From a virus (taxonomy: Duplodnaviria; Caudoviricetes), in IMG/VR virus record IMGVR_UViG_2747842453_000003, positions 1 through 64,000 of that record: 64,000 nt of DNA; one strand, given 5' to 3'. Positions 21,441-57,619 of this stretch are shown in pieces. Position numbers and translations under genes: made by a program. The stretch's first letter is position 1; each line of letters begins with the position of its first letter. The notes beneath the pieces were generated by a model that was not told the DNA's origin, did no database searches, and worked only from the letters and a program-made list of their open reading frames with translations.

Positions 21441-22151
21441 TTAGAATATTTCATGCCGTAATAATGCTTTGGTAATTTTAATAATATTTTCACTTGCAAT
21501 AAATGCCATTAATTGCATATCAATGTGTTCTTTGCAATATATCACATAGGAATTATAGTTACTATGTCGAAATACATAGGATAAATTATATCCTGTAGAA
21601 GAATAGACAGTAGAAGAATAATTTGGATCTTTATTGAACTTTCTTAAATTATTATTCAAAAAATAATTATCATTATCAATGTATGATTCATTTAATAACG
21701 GTCCTAGTGTAACATGTAGATTATTATTGTATCTTAACTGAATTTTGTATCTGAATTTTTTATGATACAGTTTATTTTTTATTTCAACATTATCTTCATA
21801 TCGTTCAAACTGTTCTGCCAAATTATCAATGAAAGGAACATGATGCTCTTTTTGTAAATCGGGATACCGATTTGTGGCACGTTCAAATACTTTCTTGTCC
21901 TCAAAATATACATGTGTCATTGAACTATTTGTAAACTTTGTCCCTGGTTGACTTCTAAGAAATCGTATACAATTTGCCCTAGAAACTTGATCCTCTACAT
22001 TTGTGGGATAATCAAACCACCAACCATATCCAGTTCTATTTTTATATGATTCAATAATTTCCTTAGATGGAAATCCATATAGGCGTTTATATGCTATTTT
22101 ATAAGGATATTTTTTGTAAAATAATTTTGTAGACTCAAAAGTTCTAATCAT
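21441..22151 (-). CDS. Hypothetical protein
   Basis: 236-aa ORF overlapping the clpA stop; two KL(F/Y)xKK(Y/F)xYKI motifs. Confidence 0.65.
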   Translation of the reverse strand: MIRTFESTKLFYKKYPYKIAYKRLYGFPSKEIIESYKNRTGYGWWFDYPTNVEDQVSRANCIRFLRSQPGTKFTNSSMTHVYFEDKKVFERATNRYPDLQKEHHVPFIDNLAEQFERYEDNVEIKNKLYHKKFRYKIQLRYNNNLHVTLGPLLNESYIDNDNYFLNNNLRKFNKDPNYSSTVYSSTGYNLSYVFRHSNYNSYVIYCKEHIDMQLMAFIASENIIKITKALLRHEIF

Positions 22152-24387
22152 AATTAAACACTATTTCATCTTCATGAACTTTAACAACTACTTTGCCTCC
22201 ATTCATTAGTTTTCCAAAAAGAATTTCTTTGGATAATGGCTTTTTAATATTGTCATTAATAACTCGTTGAAGAGGTCTTGCTCCCATATCTGGTATGTAG
22301 CCACGTTCACGCAACCATGCCTTGGCGCCAAGAGTCAATTCAATTACTACACGTTTGTCTGTTAACATCACATTTAATTCTTTAATTGATTTATCAACAA
22401 TCATATCAATATGTTCACGCTGCAATGAAACAAATTCAACCATCGCATCTAATCTATTTCTGAATTCAGGTGAAAAGAACTTTTTTACAGCCTGTAGTGA
22501 TGCATCGTCATTATCATTACTAAACCCAATTGCCAACTTAGATTTCTGTGATGCACCTAGATTACTAGTCATAATTAGAATAGCATTACTGAAATCAGCA
22601 ACTTTGCCGGTTGAACTTGTTAGTCTACCATCATCCATGACTTGTAAAAGTAAGTTCATAACACTAGGATGTGCTTTCTCAACTTCGTCTAGCAGAATAA
22701 TACAATTTGGTGTTTCTTCTACATCATTGATCAATTTGCCAGACCCAGCACCACCTTCTGCATGTCCAACATATCCGGGAGGTGCACCTATTAGTTTCGA
22801 TACACTGTGTTGTTCCATGTATTCACTCATATCATATTTTCGAAGTGTTACATCTAAATTACTTGCGAGTTGGCGACATAGTTCTGTTTTTCCTGTGCCG
22901 GTAGGACCTACAAATAAGAAACTACCAATTGGTTTATTTGTTGGTCGCATTCCTGATTTAGCAACTAGAATAGATTCTACTAATGTGCTTACTGCTTTAT
23001 TTTGACCAAATAAATTTGTTCTTATATTTGATTCCAGATTTGCATAATTCGTATTTTCTTTTGCATCAATCATGTCTAATGGTATGCGTGTAATCTTTGA
23101 TACTGCATGTTCAATTGCACTGTTGTCAATGATACCTGAAATATTATTTAATTTTTGCCTTGCACCCGCAACATCAATAATATCAATTGCACGATCTGGA
23201 TTAAATTTGCCATGCATATAACGTTCTGCCAAGTCTACAGCATAATCAAGTGCATTATCATCATATGGATTACCATGAAATTCTTCGTAGTACTTTTTAA
23301 GACCTTTAACAATAAGTTTAGTATCTTCTTTGCTGGGCTGCTCAACTAATACTTTTTGAAAGCGGCGCTGTAATGCTCTATCTTTTTCAAAGTTTTCACG
23401 ATATTCTTCGCTTGTTGTCGCACCTATACATAGCAACTTACCACCTGCCAATAGTGGCTTCAATAAATTAGCGATATCAATATTTGATCCACCTGCTGAT
23501 CCTGCACCCATAATCATATGAATCTCATCCATAAAAAGAATTATATTATCTTTTTCTGAGAGTTGTTCAAAAACTATTTTAGCACGTTCTTCAAATTCGC
23601 CACGGTATTTAGTTCCTGCTACCATACCTGTAATATCAAGTGAGTACACTATTTTGTTTTTTAGAATGTCTGGACAGTTATCATTTACAATATTTAATGC
23701 AATACCTTCTGCTATTGCAGTTTTACCTACTCCCGGCTCACCTACAATAATGACATTATTTTTCTTTCTTCTCGCCAACACTTCAGTAATTTCAATGATT
23801 TCTTCACTTCTACCAATTACAGGATCAATTTTTCCGTCTGCTGCTGCTTTATTCAAATTTTCACAAAAATCTTCAAATTTAATTTGCCCTTGCCCTTGTG
23901 GTCCTGCCATGCCTGCTGGTCCACGTTGCGTTCTAGCCTGAAAGATTTCATAAAAATCTTTTTCAATAATACTAATGACTTTATCACGTGATGCACCATT
24001 TTTCTTTAAAATATAATAAGCATGGGATGATGGTTCACTTAATAATGAGACAATTAAATCTTTACAGAACATTTCTTTTCTGCCAGTAAAAATAACTTGT
24101 GCAACTGCACGATTAAAAACACGATCTATTGCTAAAGTATGTCTTGGACCAGTGGGCTCCATTATCTCCACTGTGAGATCATCCCGTTGTGCCAAGTTTT
24201 CTTCAAGTTCTCTAATAATATTAATAATATCACACTTCATTTTTTCTAATAATGCTAGAACATCTTTTTCCTCTATAAGAGTATAAAGTAAATGTTCTAA
24301 TGTCACATATTCATGTGACAATGATGCCGCCTTAATAATCGATTGATCTAAGACCCAATTAACTCTATTACTATAATTACTACTCAT
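22144..24387 (-). CDS. clpA: ATP-dependent Clp protease ATP-binding subunit ClpA
   Basis: Clp N-domain (HEYVTLEHLL), two AAA+ modules (GEPGVGKT/DEIH; GPTGTGKT/DEVEKAH), KYRGEFEER pore loop, GAPPGYVG, IGF ClpP-docking loop, no ClpB M-domain. Confidence 0.92.
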   Translation of the reverse strand: MSSNYSNRVNWVLDQSIIKAASLSHEYVTLEHLLYTLIEEKDVLALLEKMKCDIINIIRELEENLAQRDDLTVEIMEPTGPRHTLAIDRVFNRAVAQVIFTGRKEMFCKDLIVSLLSEPSSHAYYILKKNGASRDKVISIIEKDFYEIFQARTQRGPAGMAGPQGQGQIKFEDFCENLNKAAADGKIDPVIGRSEEIIEITEVLARRKKNNVIIVGEPGVGKTAIAEGIALNIVNDNCPDILKNKIVYSLDITGMVAGTKYRGEFEERAKIVFEQLSEKDNIILFMDEIHMIMGAGSAGGSNIDIANLLKPLLAGGKLLCIGATTSEEYRENFEKDRALQRRFQKVLVEQPSKEDTKLIVKGLKKYYEEFHGNPYDDNALDYAVDLAERYMHGKFNPDRAIDIIDVAGARQKLNNISGIIDNSAIEHAVSKITRIPLDMIDAKENTNYANLESNIRTNLFGQNKAVSTLVESILVAKSGMRPTNKPIGSFLFVGPTGTGKTELCRQLASNLDVTLRKYDMSEYMEQHSVSKLIGAPPGYVGHAEGGAGSGKLINDVEETPNCIILLDEVEKAHPSVMNLLLQVMDDGRLTSSTGKVADFSNAILIMTSNLGASQKSKLAIGFSNDNDDASLQAVKKFFSPEFRNRLDAMVEFVSLQREHIDMIVDKSIKELNVMLTDKRVVIELTLGAKAWLRERGYIPDMGARPLQRVINDNIKKPLSKEILFGKLMNGGKVVVKVHEDEIVFNYD

Positions 24388-30204: not shown

Positions 30205-30292
30205 TGGCAGACAGTGTGGGATTCGAACCCACGGAACCTCTCGGTTCGCCGGATTAGTAATCCGGTGCCTTCGACCACTCGGCCAACTGTCC
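30205..30292 (-). tRNA. tRNA-Ser(ACT)
   Basis: GGACAGT acceptor, G73, CCA, long variable arm; anticodon arm CCGGA-TTACTAA-TCCGG. Confidence 0.85.
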
Positions 30293-30299
30293 ACATTAT

Positions 30300-30376
30300 T
30301 GGTCGGAGTATAAGGATTCGAACCTTAGACCTCTGCGTCCCAAACGCAGCGCACTACCAGACTGTGCTATACTCCG
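30300..30376 (-). tRNA. tRNA-Pro(TGG)
   Basis: CGGAGTA acceptor, CTGCG-TTTGGGA-CGCAG, GTTCGAATC, CCA. Confidence 0.95.
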
Positions 30377-30382
30377 TATTAA

Positions 30383-30457
30383 TGGCATCCCGTAGGGGAA
30401 TTGAACCCCTCTTTCCAGGTTGAAAACCTAGCGTCCTAACCGATAGACGAACGGGAC
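30383..30457 (-). tRNA. tRNA-Glu(TTC)
   Basis: GTCCCGT acceptor, CTAGG-TTTTCAA-CCTGG, CCA. Confidence 0.92.
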
Positions 30458-30548
30458 AAATAATGTCAAGCAGTTTATGGTCGTGCTTAGGACATTCTGG
30501 GCACCATTTGTTCAATTATTTTAAAAGAGGAACAAAACCCTTTAACTA

Positions 30549-30625
30549 TGGCGCGGTTGACGGGACTCGAACCCGCGACCCTCGGCGTGACAGGCCGATA
30601 CTCTAACCAACTGAGCTACAACCGC
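30549..30625 (-). tRNA. tRNA-Asp(GTC)
   Basis: GCGGTTG acceptor, TCGGC-CTGTCAC-GCCGA, CCA. Confidence 0.95.
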
Positions 30626-30631
30626 TTGTTA

Positions 30632-30874
30632 TTATTCTCCAATATCAAATGACAATTGACGTTCTGCATCTGCCTCTTCTTTGCGTTCTGAAATAATCAT
30701 ATCGACAATTTCATTAAATGATTCATAAAATTGTTCATCGTCTTTCCAGAATGAGCGACACGCAGCATATGCATCAGCATCTACGAAATTCCAGTTGATT
30801 GAATAATCTTCATTGAGGTTTTCTGATTTCTCAACTGCATCACGGATTTCGATTTCAAGCATTGAATGGATCAT
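30632..30874 (-). CDS. Hypothetical protein
   Basis: 80-aa ORF downstream of a TTGACA-17-TATAAA promoter (about 30906-30934). Confidence 0.65.
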   Translation of the reverse strand: MIHSMLEIEIRDAVEKSENLNEDYSINWNFVDADAYAACRSFWKDDEQFYESFNEIVDMIISERKEEADAERQLSFDIGE

Positions 30875-31096
30875 TGTGATTCTCTCTTATCGTTTCTATG
30901 CATATTTTATAGCATGGTAGAAATAGATTGTCAAGAGTTATTTTAAATTATTTGTCTATTTCTAAACATGGAATAAGAATTGACTGCTTACAATTATCTG
31001 GATATGCAATTGCTGAAACAATGATCGGCATACCCAGCATAAAGAAAGAAATAATAATAAAAGATAGTAATAGTTTCATAAGTTATAATCCTAATT

Positions 31097-31180
31097 TGGT
31101 GGGCGACCCTGGAATCGAACCAGGCATGAGTCACCTCGGCGGAGTTACAGTCCGCTGCCGCACCTTGCAGCACGCCGCCC
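31097..31180 (-). tRNA. tRNA-Tyr(GTA)
   Basis: GCGGA-CTGTAAC-TCCGC, long variable arm, A73, CCA. Confidence 0.9.
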
Positions 31181-31191
31181 AACATTTTATG

Positions 31192-31395
31192 TTAGTCTAA
31201 AAATTCAATCATTTTCAGAATACGTGTACGATTCTCTTCATCGCTGACAATGTTCTCCATCATTTCTTCAATGGTAGCGTCCTCAGCATCAATATCGTTT
31301 AACCATCCATCAATATTTAATGGATCGTCTTCCAAATTTTCACGTTCATACACTTCGTCTGCTAATAGTCTTTCTAATGCTTCAAAATCTGTCAT
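31192..31395 (-). CDS. Small acidic hypothetical protein
   Basis: 67-aa ORF between tRNAs. Confidence 0.55.
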   Translation of the reverse strand: MTDFEALERLLADEVYERENLEDDPLNIDGWLNDIDAEDATIEEMMENIVSDEENRTRILKMIEFLD

Positions 31396-31432
31396 TTTAA
31401 TTCATTGCCTATTTTTGTTTCATTTTAATATT

Positions 31433-31523
31433 TGGTAGAAGTGGGTGGATTCGAACCACCTCAAAGGCGCTAATCTGGCGCAAAGAGCATATAAGACTCC
31501 TCTGACTACCAAGTCTCACTTCC
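31433..31523 (-). tRNA. Non-canonical tRNA with TAT anticodon (Ile, AUA-reading)
   Basis: GGAAGTG/CACTTCT acceptor plus ACCA, canonical T-arm GGTGG-TTCGAAT-CCACC, tiny D-arm GACT-TGGT-AGTC, loop CTTATAT, long variable arm. Confidence 0.75.
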
Positions 31524-31530
31524 AATTCGT

Positions 31531-31607
31531 TGGTGCTCCCGGTAGGACTCGAACCTACGACCGACCCGTTATGAGCGGGTGGCTCTAACCAACTGAGCTA
31601 CAGGAGC
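31531..31607 (-). tRNA. tRNA with CAT anticodon, probably Ile2 (lysidine type) rather than Met
   Basis: ACCCG-CTCATAA-CGGGT; G1-C72 (not initiator); C4-G69 and C5-G68 pairs, which are TilS determinants in E. coli tRNA-Ile2. Confidence 0.85.
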
Positions 31608-31620
31608 GTTATTATTAATA

Positions 31621-31800
31621 CTATCGTTCCACTAATGGCGTTGATGAAATATAGTCATGATAGTCACCACTTTCATAATAGTCACGATATGCAGTTTCTT
31701 TTACCATTATTCCGTTCTTCATACGATATGTAACAATTTCTCTACGAATGACACCAGCAGTATCAGCATCAAATGCATTTTTAAATGGTCCCTCTGTCAT
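31621..31800 (-). CDS. Small hypothetical protein (59 aa)
   Basis: MTEGPFKNAFDADTAGVIRREIVTY... with AGGAG RBS; below track cutoff. Confidence 0.6.
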   Translation of the reverse strand: MTEGPFKNAFDADTAGVIRREIVTYRMKNGIMVKETAYRDYYESGDYHDYISSTPLVER

Positions 31801-31823
31801 ATTGTATTCTCCTTAATAATATT

Positions 31824-31910
31824 TGGTACTCGTACCCGGACTTGAACCGGGACGCCTATAAAGGCAACAGATTTTAAGTCTGGCGTGTCTACCGATTCCA
31901 CCATACGAGC
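31824..31910 (-). tRNA. tRNA-Leu(TAA)
   Basis: GCTCGTA acceptor, loop CTTAAAA, long variable arm, CCA. Confidence 0.92.
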
Positions 31911-31919
31911 ATATTTCAA

Positions 31920-32180
31920 TTAGATGATATAATCATCGTGTTCATTTTCCCATTGACTGATGGCATTACGTAATCCCATTGCTAACCAATCGCCACCTGA
32001 CATATCAAGCATTTCGCTCCATTGTTCAACAACTTCATCAATTTGTTCACGTTCCAATTCATCGGGCGAATCTACACCAAAGTGTTCCTGAATTAATCCA
32101 AATGCCCATTCAGTAACTTCACCTTCTAACCAATCAAGCATTTTGTGTGGTCGATGAATTTCAAATTTATCTTCACTCAT
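31920..32180 (-). CDS. Hypothetical protein
   Basis: Start MSEDKFEIHRPH after a GGAGG RBS. Confidence 0.65.
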   Translation of the reverse strand: MSEDKFEIHRPHKMLDWLEGEVTEWAFGLIQEHFGVDSPDELEREQIDEVVEQWSEMLDMSGGDWLAMGLRNAISQWENEHDDYII

Positions 32181-32535
32181 GTTCGCCTCCATTTCCACGT
32201 CCGGTATACTTACGACCAGACTGTAATAATTTGTTTAGTGATCCAGGATTTTTTTCTGCTTGTCGAAAAGTAACTGCAGTAATTGTAATCCCACTAATTA
32301 GAAGAATATGAAACGCTGCACTAATACCAAAAGCAAACATACTACCTACCATTACTGCGAAGATGCCACTCCAAATAAAGAATAGGCATTGAAATACCAT
32401 ATGTCCTACCATTGGATCTAAATTGCGTAGTGGTGATTTTTCAACTGTCATTACACTATCCCACATTTCTTTAGGTAGTGTAAAAAGAGTTGTCAGAGTG
32501 TTTGCCCAGCCAATGGGCTTATTAGAGGGTTTCAT
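32173..32535 (-). CDS. Hypothetical membrane protein
   Basis: Two hydrophobic helices; AGGAG RBS. Confidence 0.7.
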   Translation of the reverse strand: MKPSNKPIGWANTLTTLFTLPKEMWDSVMTVEKSPLRNLDPMVGHMVFQCLFFIWSGIFAVMVGSMFAFGISAAFHILLISGITITAVTFRQAEKNPGSLNKLLQSGRKYTGRGNGGEHE

Positions 32536-32555
32536 TTTCTTCTCCTTATTTAATT

Positions 32556-32632
32556 TGGCGGTCCCTATAGGATTCGAACCTATGACCTACTGCTTAGAAG
32601 GCAGTTGCTCTATCCAGCTGAGCTAAGGAACC
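32556..32632 (-). tRNA. tRNA-Arg(TCT)
   Basis: ACTGC-CTTCTAA-GCAGT, GTTCGAATC, CCA. Confidence 0.95.
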
Positions 32633-36652: not shown

Positions 36653-37009
36653 TTATTTAATGAATTGTTTTAATTCTGGTGCTTTCCATCCTTCTGGCTT
36701 TAATACCTTACCATCTTCTCTTTTAATAACTTTGCCAGTTGTAGGATTAATTTTGGCAAAGTTAGTATTCATTACTTCATTCCATGCTGCTTCTGCATCC
36801 CAGCCAGCAGCACGAATAGCACCGATAGTAACAACCAGAATATCAACTAATGCATCAAGTTGTTCAACATGATCATTCGCTACCACTGCATCTATTAATT
36901 CACCATACTCTTCATCAATTAACCCCAGGTACATTTTGTAATTTTCTGGTGATGATGGTTGGTCACATGCTTCCGCAAATTTATTAATGTCTTCAAATAC
37001 GTTTGTCAT
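36653..37009 (-). CDS. MazG-like/all-alpha NTP pyrophosphohydrolase
   Basis: LIDEEYGEL...LDALVDI...EVMNTNFAK...REDGKVLKP. Confidence 0.8.
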   Translation of the reverse strand: MTNVFEDINKFAEACDQPSSPENYKMYLGLIDEEYGELIDAVVANDHVEQLDALVDILVVTIGAIRAAGWDAEAAWNEVMNTNFAKINPTTGKVIKREDGKVLKPEGWKAPELKQFIK

Positions 37010-37454: not shown

Positions 37455-40298
37455 TCATTTTGATAATAATACAGTATTGCCTCCAATTGCAGTAGTATTA
37501 ATACTCACATGCTTCTCCCAAACATATGATTTTAAATAATCTGGTCCACCTGCTTTGGGCCCAGTACCTGACAATCCAATACCACCAAATGGCTGTGTTT
37601 CTACTATTGCTCCAATTTGATCACGATTGATGTAAATATTACCAACATTAACATTATTAGTAATTTCATCATAAAAAGATGCTATTCTGGAATGAATACT
37701 CATGGTTAAACCAAATTTGGTTTCATTAATATCTGATATAATGCCATCTAGTTCATCAACATCATATTCATATACATGTAACAGAGGTCCGAATATTTCC
37801 TTATCAAAATATTTTTTATAATCTGATACTAGATAAGCACTTGGTGGAATTGTTAAAGCAGGTAATTCAACACCATTTCTTGATCTTGTCGCTATCAGTA
37901 TTTCATTTTCTTCAAGTACTGCAATACGTTTTTGTATACTTGCAAAAGCGGCACCATCAATGACACGTGTAACATCAGTATTCAAATCATCACTGAACCC
38001 CATCTGTACAACTTTAATAGCATTTCCCAACATCTTTAAAATAGTATTAGCATTATCTTTTTGTACAAATAAAAATCTTGTTGCACTACAACGCTGTCCT
38101 GCACTATCAAATGCACCGTGTATTACATCTTTAACTAATTGTTCTGGTAAACACGTACTATCAGCAATCATACAATTAATGCCTCCAGTCTCTGCAATAA
38201 ACGGTATAATAGGTCCGTCACGGTCTGCTAACACACGTTGAATACGCTTTGCAGTTTTATGTGAACCAGTAAATGTTATACCGTTAATTCTTTCATCTGA
38301 TACTGCAAGTTCTGCATCCTTAGGATCAGTGGGACATAATCTAATAGCATAATCTGGTATACCGCATTCAAGCATACAACTAACTGCAGTCTCAGCAACC
38401 TTAATTGTTTGTGGCGCAGATTTTGCTAATACAGTATTACCTGTTAGCAATGCTGCTATAATTGGTCCTACAAAAATAGCAAGTGGAAAATTCCATGGTG
38501 CTATAACCATCCACACACCGTGTGCCTGATATGTAGTTGTATTAATTTCGCCTGTATAACTTAACGTATCGCCTTGATTATATAATTTTTCTGCTTGTTC
38601 AGCATAGTATCTAATAAAATCTATGGCTTCCCGAACTTCGCCAATAGCGTTAGGATATGTTTTATTTGCATGTGTAACTAAATTACTTGCTGCTTGTTCC
38701 ATATGTGTTTCCAAATGATCAGCATATTCAAGAACTACTTTCTTTCGTTCATTAAATGTAGTTTTACTCCATTCTTTGCGACCTTTCTCTAGCACTACAA
38801 TACTATCGGTTACTGATAATTGTTCAGGTACAATAAATTCATAACTTGGTCTTCCCACTAGATTTACAATAGATGCAGGATCAGTTAAATCATATCCACG
38901 ACTATTCTTTCGGTTGGGATATAAATCTTTGTATGTTGGTAATTTTTCTTTGTCTTTTTTTGCTTCTATAAATGGATCCACCAGTTGTTGATTAAAAACA
39001 AAACTAGTGTTTGCTCCATTTTCTAATAATCTACGGACAAGATATGCAAGTAAATCTTTGTATTCACCTACAGGCGCATATACTCTAATACTTGTGTTGT
39101 ATGTATTCTGTAGATGGTCAAATAATCCATCACCCATACCATATAACTTTTGAAACTCAAATTCACCTCCTAGGGTTTCGTGGTAAAAGTATATGGCTGC
39201 CACAGTGAATGGATTGTGCGTGGCATAGGCAGGCTTGATATACTCTGATAACATAATCTTTCTTGCACATGCTAGATAACTTATGTCGGTATATTCCTTT
39301 CGTGAGAATACAGGATAGTGTAAGCCTTCTTGTTGTGCTATCTTTATTTCTGTATCCCAATATGCCCCTTTAACTAAACGGACACATATTGATGTATTGG
39401 ATTCTTCTGCAATATGTTCTAATGTTTCTATTGCCCAGAACGCACGTTTTTGATATGCTTGAACTGCGAACCCAATCGTATTTTTTTTAAATTTATGTGT
39501 TAATAATAATTCTTCCAATACCATTATACTTAGATCTAAACGTGATGCTTCCTCAGCATCAATAAACATTGTGGTATTTTTCTCTTCGCATAGCCTGGCA
39601 ATTGCTGCCAATTTTGGTACTAAATGAAGTAATACATCAGCATGATTTTTCAACTCATATCTTGGGTGAATGGCACTTAGTTTAATACTAATGCTATCTT
39701 CAAACCACGCAGCCGCTTGTATATACTTTTCATAATAATCATTTGCATCTGGCCAATTTGTTGCTGCTTCGCCCAACATATCAACTGAATATGTGTATGA
39801 CTCATTTATTGCTTTTTTTGCCTCTTCAATAGTCTCGCCCATTACAAATATGTTGCCCATCCGTTTAACAGATTCTTTAACAATCTTACGAACAGTGGGC
39901 CATCCCAATCTACTAATTAAATTATTATATGCTGCAAAACTCTGGGCTTGAGTTAATACTTTACCACTTAAAGTTGCATAGAAACTATTTTGTGATAGAA
40001 GGTTCCAATCAGCATTTGTTAGTTTTTCTTTAATTAATTTATCTTGTGTTTTTTTATCCGGTGTTCTTAGTAAACATTCGCATAGTGTCATTAACGCAAT
40101 TCCTTCATTGCCTGATAATTCATATGCAGTCATAAGTTGATGTATCATACTAGATTCATTAAATGCAGAATTAATTACATTCGATGTTTCTAATATTTCG
40201 GTTCGGTCATCTTTATTTAATCTGGCTGCCAATATTAACTTAGGCATGATTTCGTTTTCATCAATGCGATAATACATATTATGTTGATATACTTTCAT
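37455..40298 (-). CDS. putA: Bifunctional proline dehydrogenase / P5C (glutamate semialdehyde) dehydrogenase PutA
   Basis: PRODH motifs DMLGE, SIKLS, IDAEE, VRLVKGAYWDTEIK, ATHN, YLVRRLLENGANTSF; ALDH motifs PWNFP, FTGS, AETGG, SAGQRCSA, EIFGP, QPFGG.GLSGTGPKAGGP. Confidence 0.93.
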   Translation of the reverse strand: MKVYQHNMYYRIDENEIMPKLILAARLNKDDRTEILETSNVINSAFNESSMIHQLMTAYELSGNEGIALMTLCECLLRTPDKKTQDKLIKEKLTNADWNLLSQNSFYATLSGKVLTQAQSFAAYNNLISRLGWPTVRKIVKESVKRMGNIFVMGETIEEAKKAINESYTYSVDMLGEAATNWPDANDYYEKYIQAAAWFEDSISIKLSAIHPRYELKNHADVLLHLVPKLAAIARLCEEKNTTMFIDAEEASRLDLSIMVLEELLLTHKFKKNTIGFAVQAYQKRAFWAIETLEHIAEESNTSICVRLVKGAYWDTEIKIAQQEGLHYPVFSRKEYTDISYLACARKIMLSEYIKPAYATHNPFTVAAIYFYHETLGGEFEFQKLYGMGDGLFDHLQNTYNTSIRVYAPVGEYKDLLAYLVRRLLENGANTSFVFNQQLVDPFIEAKKDKEKLPTYKDLYPNRKNSRGYDLTDPASIVNLVGRPSYEFIVPEQLSVTDSIVVLEKGRKEWSKTTFNERKKVVLEYADHLETHMEQAASNLVTHANKTYPNAIGEVREAIDFIRYYAEQAEKLYNQGDTLSYTGEINTTTYQAHGVWMVIAPWNFPLAIFVGPIIAALLTGNTVLAKSAPQTIKVAETAVSCMLECGIPDYAIRLCPTDPKDAELAVSDERINGITFTGSHKTAKRIQRVLADRDGPIIPFIAETGGINCMIADSTCLPEQLVKDVIHGAFDSAGQRCSATRFLFVQKDNANTILKMLGNAIKVVQMGFSDDLNTDVTRVIDGAAFASIQKRIAVLEENEILIATRSRNGVELPALTIPPSAYLVSDYKKYFDKEIFGPLLHVYEYDVDELDGIISDINETKFGLTMSIHSRIASFYDEITNNVNVGNIYINRDQIGAIVETQPFGGIGLSGTGPKAGGPDYLKSYVWEKHVSINTTAIGGNTVLLSK

Positions 40299-40834
40299 AG
40301 CCTTTTACTCGCCTTGCTTTTAAAAATATTTCTTTCAATATATCTGATATGGCGAAGTATATCTAAGTTTATATCAAATTTGGCCCTAATCTCTCCCAGT
40401 GTTTGGTTCTTATATGAGTCAAAGTTAATTTTATGTATATTTTTAGTACGACGAGTCTTGCCGTAAACAATCCCCATATCAAATGCTATTAATTCTCTTT
40501 CGCCAAAACGATATATCTTTGGAAATATATGTGATGCATAGTATTTATACATTGATATTTGCCAATTCTTTAGTGTGATTGCATTTCCCATAGTATAGCC
40601 TATTACAAATGCTTCGTCTTGATTTAGTAGTCCTCTTCCTAATAATACATGTATACAATCGTGGGACTCTAAACATATAGAACCAGGAAGACTCAATGGT
40701 GACCGAGGATTTTCTATTATCTTTACTTTCCAACTAATATTTACACTATCACTACCCGGCAATGTGTCTAACACAGAATTAAGTGTGTCATTGCCATTGT
40801 CAATGCCTGGATTCCAATCACCATAGTTTATCAT
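40295..40834 (-). CDS. Coq4-like HDxxH-x11-E metal-binding protein
   Basis: HDCIH-VLLGRGLLNQD-E spacing equals the Coq4 zinc motif; ATGA overlap with putA. Confidence 0.55.
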   Translation of the reverse strand: MINYGDWNPGIDNGNDTLNSVLDTLPGSDSVNISWKVKIIENPRSPLSLPGSICLESHDCIHVLLGRGLLNQDEAFVIGYTMGNAITLKNWQISMYKYYASHIFPKIYRFGERELIAFDMGIVYGKTRRTKNIHKINFDSYKNQTLGEIRAKFDINLDILRHIRYIERNIFKSKASKRL

Positions 40835-40852
40835 AATTATATTTATTCATTA

Positions 40853-40953
40853 AACAAAAGAACCCGACTACCTAAGTAGCCGGGCCAAGTTTGCGAAGAG
40901 GACTATAGGGCGAATTATTCACCCTAAAGTACAGAGAAATGAATCTCTGCACC
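40853..40953 (-). ncRNA. Candidate ~100-nt late small RNA
   Basis: TAAATA box at 40956-40961, two hairpins (40929-40952, 40906-40926), unpaired linker, terminator hairpin 40863-40884 plus U-rich tail; no ORF. Confidence 0.55.
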
Positions 40954-40987
40954 AGTATTTAAAGCAAACCGATAAAAAGATAACTAT

Positions 40988-54623: not shown

Positions 54624-55703
54624 TTACCATCCAATACGTTCCCAAGGAACATCTTTGTTGCCAAAATGTCCATAAGTACAGTTCTCACTATAATTATTAA
54701 AGTTAAACAAATCGAACCTATCAATGATTCCTTTGGGAGTCATATCAATACTACTCTCAATAAACTTTTGAATTGAGCGATTATGTCCGTTTGAATCTAT
54801 ATAGATACTTGTGGGTTGTTTAACACCAATAGCATATGATAATTGTATTTGGCACCAATCAGCCATTTCATCTGCTACAACATTTTTAGCAAGCCAACGA
54901 GCCATATAGGCTGCAGAGCGGTCGACTTTAGTAGGATCCTTGCCACTAAAAGCACCGCCACCATGAGGAGCGAAACCGCCATAAGTGTCCACGATAATCT
55001 TTCTTCCTGTGACACCAGCATCACCGTCAGGACCACCGATAACAAAATTACCTGTAGGATTAAGATGCCATATAGTGTTGTCATCTACTAAATCTCCTAA
55101 TACACTCATTGTCGCAACTTTACTTATATTTCTTGCTTGCTCAATTTGACCTTCGTCATGCTGTGTACTTATCACAACTTGGTCAATACGCTTAACTTTG
55201 CCACCTTCATATTCGACACTTACTTGTGACTTTGCATCCGGTCCCAATATGTTCTGGCGTTGTAGTTTAAGTGTTTTAAGTATTTCATGACTGTAGTAAA
55301 TAGGTGCAGGCAAATATGCATCATTATTGTTACATGCATAACCAAACATAATACCCTGATCTCCTGCGCCGAAGTTATCAGTTCCCAATGCAATGTCTGC
55401 ACTTTGTGCATGAATTTCATTATAAATTTTTAATTTGTCCCAATGAAATCCATCCTGTTCATATCCAATTTCACGAACTTTATTTCTAACAATTTCTTTA
55501 ACTTGATCTTCAGTTACATTAAAGTTTTTTACTTCGCCTGCTAATGTTACCATGTTGGTAGTTACAAGTGTTTCAATGGCAACACGGGTTGTTTCATCGC
55601 CTGCTCTTAATCCTGCATCAACTAATGCATCTGATATTTGGTCTGCTACTTTATCAGGATGACCATCACTCACACTTTCACTCGTAAAAATATAGTTGTT
55701 CAT
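54624..55703 (-). CDS. metK: S-adenosylmethionine synthetase
   Basis: FTSESVSDGHPDK, GAGDQG, PDAKSQV, GGPDGDAGVTGRKI, GGGAFSGKDPTKVDRS. Confidence 0.96.
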   Translation of the reverse strand: MNNYIFTSESVSDGHPDKVADQISDALVDAGLRAGDETTRVAIETLVTTNMVTLAGEVKNFNVTEDQVKEIVRNKVREIGYEQDGFHWDKLKIYNEIHAQSADIALGTDNFGAGDQGIMFGYACNNNDAYLPAPIYYSHEILKTLKLQRQNILGPDAKSQVSVEYEGGKVKRIDQVVISTQHDEGQIEQARNISKVATMSVLGDLVDDNTIWHLNPTGNFVIGGPDGDAGVTGRKIIVDTYGGFAPHGGGAFSGKDPTKVDRSAAYMARWLAKNVVADEMADWCQIQLSYAIGVKQPTSIYIDSNGHNRSIQKFIESSIDMTPKGIIDRFDLFNFNNYSENCTYGHFGNKDVPWERIGW

Positions 55704-56503: not shown

Positions 56504-57619
56504 TTAATTGCTGTTAGCATATACTGTATTAAATTGATTATTAACTTTAACAAATGTAGTGCACTTTGTCAACTGTTTTATTTTTTCAGCACCGGCATAG
56601 GTGCACGTTGAACGAATACCGCCTAGAATGTTCTGAATTGTAGATAATACTTCTCCACGGAATGGTACTAGAACTTCACGTCCTTCACTGCTACGATAAT
56701 CTTTAAGTCCACCAAAATGCTTTGTATTTGCTGCATCACTACTCATACCATAAAATTGTACAAACTTTTTTTCTTTGTATACAGTTTCATAAAAATCATC
56801 ATCTGTTCTTGTTACTTCTGATGTTTCATACATTTTGGTGATAACATTACCACCACCTTCAATGTGTCCAGCAAGCATACCACCAAGCATTACAAAGTCA
56901 GCGCCAGCGGCAAAGGCTTTGGCTACATCGCCAGGACAAGTGCAGCCACCATCCGCAATGATATGGCCGCCAAGACCATGAGCAGCATCAGCGCACTCAA
57001 TAACAGCGGAAAGCTGAGGGTAACCAACACCAGTTTGGATCCGTGTTGTACAAACACTTCCAGGGCCGATGCCCACTTTAACAATATCTGCGCCATTTAG
57101 TATCAACTCCTGTGTTTGATCTGCGGTAACAACATTACCGGCAATGATTACTAATTGAGGAAATTCTGTGCGCACTTTGTAAATGTGTTCAACGAAATGT
57201 TCACTATATCCATTTGCAATATCCATACATACGTATTTTAATCCATCACCAACGTCATGGATCACTTCAACTAATTTTTTAAAATCATCATCGCTTGTGC
57301 CAATACTCATAGCAACATTTTCTGTACGCTCTTCTCTATTGCTATTAAAATGATCAAAATATTCTATAAGTTGTTCTGCCGAGTATGTTTTTACAAGACA
57401 TGTAAAAATATTCTGACTGGCTAAAGTATCTGCCATTTCAAATGTACCAACCCCATCCATATTGGCTGCCATAATAGGTAACCCACTATACTCAATGGTG
57501 CTATTTCTAAATGTAAACTGTCTATTCAAGTCTACATCTTTACGAGATCCTAATGTACTGCGTTTAGGACGAATTAGGACATCACTATAATCTAGTAATA
57601 CTTCATTCTCAATGCGCAT
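56504..57619 (-). CDS. guaC: GMP reductase
   Basis: [57 protein letters not shown]. Confidence 0.93.

What the first reader, a model, noticed from the sequence alone, without database searches (positions are those of the whole stretch)
37455..40847. Phage-encoded full PutA translationally coupled to a Coq4-motif protein: a proline-to-quinone module
Seen: a 947-aa PutA with the recognisable PRODH and ALDH catalytic motifs (including GQRCSA Cys and AETGG Glu) and phage-like AT-rich composition. It overlaps (ATGA) a 179-aa gene with HDxxH-x11-E, which starts just 6 nt after an ATAAATA late-type box. Known: PutA oxidises proline to glutamate and passes electrons to ubiquinone; HDxxH-x11-E is the metal motif of Coq4, a ubiquinone-biosynthesis protein; proline is a common osmolyte. 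Inference: a two-gene auxiliary module that burns the host proline pool for respiration and nitrogen late in infection. PutA is not a commonly cited phage auxiliary gene, and this copy is shorter than typical cellular PutAs.
Basis: partly seen in the sequence, partly recalled or inferred. Interest (0 to 1): 0.78.

Follow-up and report, generated by a model that had tools for sequence, protein, structure and literature searches.

The report
Phage PutA with Coq4-like partner gene
A lineage of very large marine phages carries its own intact proline-burning enzyme (PutA), in most members coupled to a small, previously unannotated relative of the quinone-pathway protein Coq4 that also sits next to putA in some bacteria, which points to an unrecognised helper of proline oxidation.

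Summary
ORF 37455-40298(-) is a complete, minimalist (type-A) bifunctional PutA. ORF 40295-40834(-) overlaps it by ATGA and carries HDxxH-x11-E. The window is the first 64 kb of a 146-kb phage contig.

The same gene pair, with the same 4-nt overlap, occurs in at least 10 independent assemblies, so it is not a chimera. Both genes are under purifying selection (dN/dS 0.06-0.14).

The 179-aa protein matches no Pfam, NCBIfam or PHROG model. It is nevertheless a distant Coq4-superfamily member: hhalign 96% against Pfam-positive Coq4 proteins, and the only two solved Coq4-type structures are its top fold hits.

Its bacterial homologues lie directly beside putA in Cellvibrionaceae and in one Rickettsiales MAG. 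With the phages, that makes three separate arrangements.

Two near-complete 342-kb relatives keep PutA but lack the Coq4-like gene, so it is an accessory.

The quinone role and the "late" timing remain inference. Fusions to an amino-acid-binding regulatory fold suggest a substrate-side role is as likely.

A conserved, covarying ~100-nt RNA precedes PutA in every relative.

This scan already reported PutA in giant marine phages on other DNA (e1-5402536). The Coq4-like link is the new part.

The parts
37455..40298 (-). putA: 947-aa bifunctional proline dehydrogenase / glutamate-gamma-semialdehyde dehydrogenase. Minimalist type A, with no RHH domain and no C-terminal ALDH-like domain.
   Evidence: Pfam and NCBIfam matches. 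Full-length alignment to 3HAZ, E 1e-199. dN/dS 0.10-0.14.
40295..40834 (-). 179-aa Coq4-superfamily protein with HDxxH-x11-E (H58, D59, H62, E74) and no match to any curated family model.
   Evidence: AF2 pLDDT 91. Fold hits 6E12 at Z 7.7 and 3MSQ at Z 7.0, next hit 3.4. hhalign 96.1% against Pfam-positive Coq4 proteins. dN/dS 0.06-0.13.
40295..40298 (-). ATGA stop/start overlap, implying translational coupling of the two genes.
   Evidence: The same 4-nt overlap occurs in L098, L099, L100, L101 and L102.
40840..40846 (-). ATAAATA promoter-like box 5 nt before the Coq4-like ATG, with no Shine-Dalgarno sequence in between. This suggests a possible leaderless start.
   Evidence: TAAATA at the same spacing in 7 phages.
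40853..40952 (-). Conserved structured RNA: two hairpins, an invariant unpaired C/U-rich linker (UAGUCCUCUUCGC) and an intrinsic terminator (stem 40861-40886).
   Evidence: 14 of 28 pairs carry compensatory changes; 94.5% of cells are paired against 40-50% in slid controls. One copy per phage genome, always upstream of putA.
40956..40961 (-). Invariant TAAATA box a few nt before the first hairpin of the RNA; a candidate promoter for it.

Best explanation
This is a genuine auxiliary operon of a marine jumbo-phage lineage.

PutA oxidises the infected cell's proline to glutamate. This follows from established PutA chemistry; activity was not tested here. The FAD-dependent proline dehydrogenase half passes electrons to the membrane quinone pool. 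The aldehyde dehydrogenase half reduces NAD+. The net yield is respiratory energy plus glutamate carbon and nitrogen.

The 179-aa gene in front encodes a trimmed, divergent Coq4-superfamily protein that keeps the HDxxH-x11-E metal site. The ATGA overlap means it is made together with PutA. I read it as an accessory of proline oxidation, not an unrelated passenger. It is useful but dispensable, since some relatives lack it.

Its biochemical step is inferred, not shown. My committed guess, at odds of about 0.3, is a metal-dependent protein working at PutA's lipid/quinone side. This is by analogy with Coq4 proteins, whose metal site adjoins a hydrophobic tunnel that held a lipid in the crystal. 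A substrate-side or amino-acid-responsive role is about equally likely.

The operon is preceded by a conserved structured RNA with its own terminator. The operon probably starts at a TAAATA-type box directly before the ATG.
For: Phage origin:
- The window lies in a 146-kb virus record with baseplate, tail-fibre and other phage genes, nine tRNA genes and a ClpA-like ATPase related to those of cultured jumbo phages.
- PutA relatives occur on 10 viral contigs, including a 342,607-bp genome with terminal repeats.

PutA:
- It is intact: searches show conserved DAEE, VKGAYWDTE, RRLLENGAN, AETGG and GQRCSA blocks.
- The phage PutAs form one clade with 100% support on a long stem. Identity is 64-100% within the clade and at most 44% to anything else.

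Linkage in phages:
- The Coq4-like gene lies directly upstream of PutA in 11 phage loci; the 4-nt overlap is confirmed in the window and in L098-L102.
- Both genes are under purifying selection.

Coq4 relationship:
- AF2 model with pLDDT 91.
- The two solved Coq4-type structures are the top two hits, well above background. They recur for a second family member.
- hhalign gives 96.1%, E 3.3e-9, with the HD..H motif aligned.
- Published work says this motif binds metal and is needed for COQ4 function, and that a hydrophobic tunnel adjoins it (PMC10680789).

Linkage outside phages:
- putA is the immediate neighbour of the homologue in 13 of 80 bacterial loci.
- Twelve are Cellvibrionaceae, where putA and the Coq4-like gene form a two-gene unit sitting between ruvC and ruvAB.
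- One is a Rickettsiales MAG with convergent orientation.
- These fall in separate clades of the family tree, and the phage proteins form a third clade.
Against: - Two near-complete relatives (G001 at 100%, G002 at 92% completeness) keep PutA and the RNA but have no Coq4-like gene anywhere. PutA therefore works without it.
- 67 of 80 bacterial homologues are not next to putA, and their contexts vary.
- No Pfam Coq4 hit, even at E 10.
- The fold match is moderate: Z 7-8, rmsd 4-5 A, 121-123 residues.
- The protein lacks roughly the first 65-80 residues of the cyanobacterial Coq4 homologues.
- No quinone-pathway genes were seen nearby.
- The family occurs in taxa that do not make ubiquinone (plus my own knowledge of their quinones).
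- At least 11 bacterial clusters fuse the domain to a LeuA/citramalate-synthase-type regulatory fold.
- No expression data and no protein-protein evidence could be obtained.
Confidence: 0.6

Rival explanations
1. The Coq4-like protein works on the substrate side or as a sensor. It would be a metal-dependent enzyme or an amino-acid-responsive effector acting on a proline-related metabolite or on PutA regulation, with no link to quinones.
For: - At least 11 representative clusters of about 410-430 aa fuse the domain to an N-terminal fold matching the leucine/isoleucine-binding regulatory domains of LeuA and citramalate synthase. Foldseek gives E 5e-5; VIA gives Z 10.3 and 9.8.
- One form is fused to a histidine kinase.
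- One homologue lies beside arginase and an aminotransferase. Another lies before a kinase/response-regulator set.
- The family is present in taxa without ubiquinone.
- The COQ4 metal site resembles that of binuclear metallohydrolases (PMC10680789).
Against: - The only experimentally known function in the superfamily concerns prenylated quinone precursors.
- The regulatory-domain match is at fold level only, with no Pfam hit.
- The neighbourhoods cited are single cases.
Confidence: 0.25
2. The Coq4-like gene is an unrelated passenger (moron) that landed between the RNA element and PutA. The bacterial adjacencies are coincidence or hitch-hiking.
For: - The gene is absent from complete relatives.
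- The presence pattern needs at least 2 gain or loss events on the PutA tree.
- The window's copy is 100% identical in protein to that of L005/L006 while PutA is only 82% identical. The junction is therefore a recombination point.
- Most bacterial homologues are not near putA.
Against: - There are three independent immediate adjacencies to a single-copy gene.
- The same 4-nt overlap is kept in phages whose proteins have diverged to about 70% identity.
- The gene is under strong purifying selection.
- In Cellvibrionaceae the two genes form an isolated two-gene unit.
Confidence: 0.15
3. PutA is host DNA joined to phage DNA by mis-assembly, or it is an inactive relic.
For: None found beyond the general rarity of PutA in phage records. 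The PutA-like hits in the phage collection are mislabelled bacterial contigs.
Against: - Synteny is the same in at least 10 assemblies from different samples and pipelines.
- The gene is present inside a complete genome with terminal repeats.
- GC content equals that of the flanks.
- Identity to any cellular PutA is at most 44%.
- dN/dS is 0.10-0.14.
- The catalytic blocks are intact.
Confidence: 0.01

Closest known systems
Type-A 'minimalist' PutA, e.g. Bradyrhizobium japonicum PutA (PDB 3HAZ, 1001 aa)
   Same: - Same domain order: arm/alpha domain, PRODH barrel, linker, ALDH.
- Full-length alignment, E 1e-199.
- Conserved FAD/proline-site and Cys/Glu catalytic blocks.
- No RHH domain and no C-terminal extra domain.
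   Different: - Encoded by a phage.
- About 50 residues shorter, through small loop and linker deletions.
- At most 44% identical to any cellular PutA, forming its own clade.
- Preceded by a conserved RNA and, in most members, by a Coq4-like gene.
Coq4 family (Pfam PF05019): eukaryotic COQ4 and the cyanobacterial homologues Alr8543 (PDB 6E12) and Npun02000094 (PDB 3MSQ)
   Same: - HDxxH-x11-E with identical spacing.
- A shared C-terminal '...IR..LG(I/L)' block.
- Helical fold, with these two structures as the best hits.
- Profile-profile probability 96%.
   Different: - Not detected by the Pfam model.
- 179 aa against about 205-260 aa; it aligns only from about residue 80 of 6E12.
- It has its own invariant blocks: WNPG near the N-terminus, GRGL-x2-QDEAF, and a C-terminal S-x-R-L.
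- Genomic partner is putA, not quinone-pathway genes.
Phage auxiliary metabolic genes in general
   Same: A host-type metabolic enzyme kept under selection inside a lytic-type phage genome, next to other metabolic genes. These include metK at 54624-55703 and a MazG/PRA-PH-like gene at 36653-37009.
   Different: - Proline catabolism is not among the commonly described classes.
- I found no paper in the held library linking proline dehydrogenase with jumbo phages.
- 'putA' with 'AMGs' and 'proline' gave no paper. The one paper holding 'proline dehydrogenase' with 'auxiliary metabolic genes' concerns giant viruses of algae.
- This scan did report it once before, on another genome (e1-5402536).
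Neisseria sibling sRNAs NmsR / NgncR_162/163 (Rfam RF02877). This applies to the upstream RNA only.
   Same: - Architecture: hairpins, an exposed C/U-rich anti-Shine-Dalgarno-like stretch, then a terminator.
- Weak full-length Rfam alignment, 25.4 bits, E 0.066.
   Different: - The score is far below the gathering score of 52, so this is resemblance of layout only, not membership.
- That literature shows control of the TCA cycle and amino-acid uptake, not a tested link to putA (PMC9973317).

Membership tests
Bifunctional PutA (NCBIfam NF008869) | Whole-protein score above the curated cut-off | tested here: met
   1007.6 bits against a cut-off of 747
Bifunctional PutA | Proline dehydrogenase (FAD) domain with conserved substrate and FAD blocks | tested here: met
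   Pfam Pro_dh 2.8e-80. The DAEE, VKGAYWDTE and RRLLENGAN blocks align with 3HAZ and are invariant in 33 PutAs.
Bifunctional PutA | ALDH domain with catalytic Cys and general-base Glu | tested here: met
   Pfam Aldedh 1.3e-84. GQRCSA and AETGG are aligned and invariant.
Bifunctional PutA | Enzymatic activity: proline to glutamate, with quinone reduction | not testable with these tools
   Sequence evidence only
Type-A PutA (no RHH, no C-terminal ALDH-like domain) | Absence of the N-terminal ribbon-helix-helix domain and of the C-terminal extra domain | tested here: met
   Residues 10-946 align to 14-998 of the 1001-aa type-A enzyme 3HAZ. The trifunctional model NF008772 scores 785.8, below its cut-off of 1750.
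Coq4 (Pfam PF05019) | Match to the family HMM above the gathering score | tested here: not met
   No hit at E<=1 for the protein and none at E<=10 in the whole phage record. The same model finds three paralogues in an Anabaena genome.
Coq4 superfamily | HDxxH-x11-E metal-binding motif | tested here: met
   H58, D59, H62 and E74, conserved across 38 homologues. The spacing is the same as in Pfam-positive Anabaena Coq4 proteins.
Coq4 superfamily | Detectable homology by profile-profile comparison | tested here: met
   hhalign probability 96.1%, E 3.3e-9, 145 columns. The template alignment has only 3 sequences.
Coq4 superfamily | Shared fold with solved members (6E12, 3MSQ) | tested here: met
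   Top two of 48,161 chains, Z 7.7 and 7.0 against 3.4 for the next. Foldseek probability 0.99, E 0.11. Repeated with a second family member at Z 7.2 and 6.0. The absolute scores are moderate.
Coq4 family function (ubiquinone C1 oxidative decarboxylation) | Acts on a prenylated quinone precursor and binds metal | not testable with these tools
   Function known from PMC10680789; nothing here tests it.
Phage auxiliary metabolic gene | Lies inside a bona fide phage genome, flanked by phage genes, and is conserved among relatives | tested here: met
Rfam NmsRb (RF02877), for the upstream RNA | Score above the gathering threshold | tested here: not met
   25.4 bits against 52

The most novel reading that the evidence does not exclude
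The 179-aa protein defines an undescribed branch of the Coq4 superfamily. About 460 representative clusters match the family profile, and none of the members tested matched a curated model. Its physiological job would be tied to PutA, either by presenting or handling membrane quinone for the flavoenzyme, or by catalysing an unknown metal-dependent step on a proline-related compound. On this reading, marine jumbo phages deploy a three-part unit (structured RNA, Coq4-like protein, PutA) to take over host proline catabolism.
Probability: 0.3. Interest if true: 0.75.

Novelty: new variant of a known kind. Interest (0 to 1): 0.6.

Why it matters
- Proline is a major osmolyte and a respiratory fuel. 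A phage-borne PutA conserved across a widespread marine jumbo-phage clade adds amino-acid respiration to the metabolic steps that phages take over.
- Bacterial Coq4-like proteins have no assigned function. A recurring, independently evolved adjacency to putA gives a concrete, testable handle on one branch of them. It may also reveal a missing accessory of PutA enzymology, in quinone delivery, regulation or an extra catalytic step.
- The conserved RNA in front of the operon is a candidate phage regulatory RNA.

Tried and rejected
- **Phage DNA search:** megablast of the region against the phage collection found nothing. The tblastn PutA 'phage' hits are mislabelled bacterial contigs.
- **PDB sequence profile search** with the family found only a chance hit, E 0.41.
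- **Pfam on ten fusion forms** gave nothing useful except a histidine-kinase ATPase domain.
- **Contexts of fusion proteins** were uninformative.
- **Succinate dehydrogenase adjacency,** seen once, is not repeated in the 80 bacterial loci. I dropped it as support for a quinone role.
- **Seed complementarity:** the RNA linker has 11 nt of complementarity to the GRGL codons of the Coq4-like gene in the window. This is not conserved in relatives, so I rejected it as coincidence.
- **Rfam** gives no family for the RNA.
There are therefore no expression or read-level data.
- **Host identity** was not resolved.
Full report
**What is there**

On the minus strand, ORF 40295-40834 (179 aa) ends in an ATGA that is also the start of ORF 37455-40298 (947 aa).

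The long ORF is a complete bifunctional PutA:
- Pfam gives Pro_dh-DNA_bdg, Pro_dh and Aldedh.
- NCBIfam PutA model NF008869 scores 1007.6 bits against a cut-off of 747.
- It aligns end to end with the minimalist type-A enzyme of Bradyrhizobium (3HAZ, E 1e-199).
- The proline/FAD-site blocks and the AETGG and GQRCSA catalytic blocks are conserved. They are invariant in an alignment of 33 PutAs.
- There is no RHH DNA-binding domain and no C-terminal extra domain. The roughly 50 missing residues are small loop and linker deletions.

**It is a phage gene, not a chimera**

- The window is the first 64 kb of a 146-kb virus record that CheckV rates 40% complete.
- It carries baseplate and tail-fibre genes, a ClpA-like ATPase shared with cultured jumbo phages, metK and nine tRNAs.
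- GC content of putA equals that of its flanks.
- Close PutA relatives lie on 10 other viral contigs, among them a 342,607-bp genome with terminal repeats. More occur on Tara Oceans and other assemblies with the same neighbours.
- In the protein database the ~947-aa PutAs form a block at 64-100% identity, on contigs up to 472 kb, and then drop to 44% or less.
- In a tree they are one clade with 100% support on a long stem.
- The sister clade, at 43-44% identity, also looks phage-like. There PutA follows a second aldehyde dehydrogenase.
- dN/dS is 0.10-0.14.

**The 179-aa protein**

It matches no Pfam, NCBIfam or PHROG model, and the Pfam Coq4 model finds nothing in the whole phage record. It does have homologues: 275 in a word-based search and 457 representative clusters in an exhaustive profile search.

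Conserved positions in the family alignment:
- Invariant H58, H62, G66-R67-G68-L69, Q72-D73-E74-A75-F76 and a C-terminal S-x-R-L.
- D59 conserved in at least 90% of sequences.

Evidence for Coq4-superfamily membership:
- An AlphaFold model built on this alignment is confident (pLDDT 91).
- Against 48,161 PDB representatives its two best matches are the only solved Coq4-type proteins. These are Alr8543 (6E12, Z 7.7) and 3MSQ (Z 7.0), with the next hit at 3.4. Foldseek ranks the same entries first.
- A model of a different family member again found both.
- I fetched three Pfam-positive Coq4 paralogues from an Anabaena genome. A profile-profile comparison gave 96.1% probability, E 3.3e-9, over 145 columns with the HD..H motif aligned.

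I therefore file it as a distant member of the Coq4 superfamily, not of the curated Coq4 family. It lacks about the first 65-80 residues of the cyanobacterial proteins.

**Is it linked to PutA?**

In phages, the gene sits directly upstream of PutA in 11 loci whose proteins have diverged to about 70% identity. The 4-nt overlap is confirmed in the window and in L098-L102. It is under purifying selection (dN/dS 0.06-0.13).

It is absent from two near-complete 342-kb relatives that keep PutA. On the PutA tree the pattern needs at least two gain or loss events. The phage Coq4-like proteins are monophyletic, so one gain followed by loss is the simplest history.

The window's copy is 100% identical in protein to that of L005/L006, although their PutAs are only 82% identical. 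Recombination therefore shuffles the pair.

Outside phages, I fetched the 80 best of 356 bacterial genome loci. putA is the immediate neighbour in 13 of them:
- Twelve are Cellvibrionaceae. There putA and the Coq4-like gene form an isolated two-gene unit on one strand, wedged between ruvC and ruvAB.
- One is a Rickettsiales MAG, with the two genes convergent.
- These lie in different, well-supported parts of the family tree, and the phages form a third clade.

Three independent immediate adjacencies to a single-copy gene are hard to ascribe to chance. This is my main argument for a functional tie. Other contexts are diverse and unrepeated.

**What it does**

This is inference. Published work shows three things (PMC10680789):
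- The HDxxH-x11-E site of COQ4 binds metal and is required for oxidative decarboxylation of a prenylated quinone precursor.
- The cyanobacterial homologue has a hydrophobic tunnel beside the metal site.
- The site resembles those of binuclear metallohydrolases.

PutA hands its electrons to membrane quinone, so a quinone- or lipid-side helper is attractive.

Against this reading:
- The family occurs in lineages that do not make ubiquinone.
- At least 11 bacterial clusters fuse the domain to a fold matching the amino-acid-binding regulatory domains of LeuA and citramalate synthase. Foldseek gives E 5e-5; VIA gives Z 10.3 and 9.8.
- One form is fused to a histidine kinase.

These fusions fit an enzyme or effector in amino-acid metabolism at least as well. 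I put about 0.3 on the quinone-side role, about 0.25-0.3 on a substrate-side or sensor role, and about 0.15 on an unrelated passenger.

**Regulatory surroundings**

The 150-nt gap upstream is more conserved than the proteins. In order, it holds:
- A TAAATA box.
- Two hairpins.
- An invariant unpaired C/U-rich stretch.
- A strong terminator.
- A second TAAATA box 5 nt before the ATG, with no Shine-Dalgarno sequence.

On the structure itself:
- Covariation is clear. 14 of 28 pairs carry compensatory changes, and 94.5% of cells are paired against 40-50% in slid controls.
- A covariance model finds exactly one copy per phage genome, always upstream of PutA. This includes the relatives that lack the Coq4-like gene, where about 300 nt of further non-coding sequence fills the gap.
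- Rfam offers only a sub-threshold resemblance to Neisseria NmsRb.

Whether this is a separate small RNA or a regulated leader cannot be decided without transcript data.

ATAAATA is not enriched overall. It is, however, strongly concentrated in intergenic positions on the coding strand. That fits a promoter element but says nothing about timing.

**Prior knowledge**

- The held literature has no paper linking proline dehydrogenase with jumbo phages.
- 'putA' with 'AMGs' and 'proline' gave no paper. The one paper holding 'proline dehydrogenase' with 'auxiliary metabolic genes' concerns giant viruses of algae.
- No paper links Coq4 with PutA beyond general CoQ reviews.
- This scan had already reported PutA in giant marine phages on another genome (e1-5402536). 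It had also flagged the RNA separately (e1-5758299).
- The new content here is the Coq4-superfamily assignment, the recurrent putA adjacency in bacteria, and the finding that the RNA, not the Coq4-like gene, is PutA's constant companion.

Noticed in passing
window 40853-40961 (-); also L008:5599-5701, L009:5644-5744: A conserved ~100-nt structured RNA: TAAATA box, two hairpins, an invariant UAGUCCUCUUCGC linker and a terminator. It is single-copy per genome and always upstream of putA, even where the Coq4-like gene is missing. Covariation is strong. The scan had already flagged it as e1-5758299.
   Followed up: partly
L008:5700-6000 and L009:5745-6000: In the relatives without the Coq4-like gene, about 300 nt of non-coding sequence with further hairpins lies between the RNA and putA. 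L009 holds a stretch (TTGGCGAACGAGGGA) nearly complementary to the RNA's invariant linker.
   Followed up: no
window 40295-40834 versus L005/L006:5465-6001: Mosaicism: the Coq4-like protein is 100% identical to that of L005/L006 while the adjoining PutA is only 82% identical. Conversely, against L002, dS is 0.27 for putA and 1.57 for the Coq4-like gene.
   Followed up: partly
proteins P0129, P0131, P0132, P0134 and others (alignment A6); P0136: In bacteria the Coq4-like domain is fused to an N-terminal fold like the amino-acid-binding regulatory domain of LeuA and citramalate synthase. In one case it is fused to a membrane histidine kinase.
   Followed up: partly
L038:917-7903 and eleven other Cellvibrionaceae loci: The putA plus Coq4-like pair sits on the opposite strand between ruvC and ruvA-ruvB, splitting the usual ruv gene neighbourhood.
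   Followed up: partly
L103:5595-9832, L104:5148-9385: A second, phage-like lineage has a 943-aa PutA (43-44% identical) directly preceded by a separate 467-aa aldehyde dehydrogenase. It lacks the RNA element.
   Followed up: partly
window 36653-37009 (-): A MazG/PRA-PH-like pyrophosphohydrolase gene lies downstream of putA (the next annotated gene). It keeps this position in L098 and L101.
   Followed up: no
window 22144-24387 (-), 54624-55703 (-), 56504-57619 (-), 30205-32632 (-): Other host-type genes in the window: a ClpA-like ATPase about 46% identical to those of jumbo phages Phosso, PA5oct and Atu_ph07; a SAM synthetase; a dehydrogenase (phrog_9582); and a block of nine tRNA genes.
   Followed up: no
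window, minus strand: 52148, 48751, 26524, 21436, 11893, 6758, 628: ATAAATA boxes lie upstream of gene starts, 22-37 nt upstream in four of these cases and farther in the others. 8 of 17 coding-strand copies fall in the ~7% of the strand that is non-coding.
   Followed up: partly
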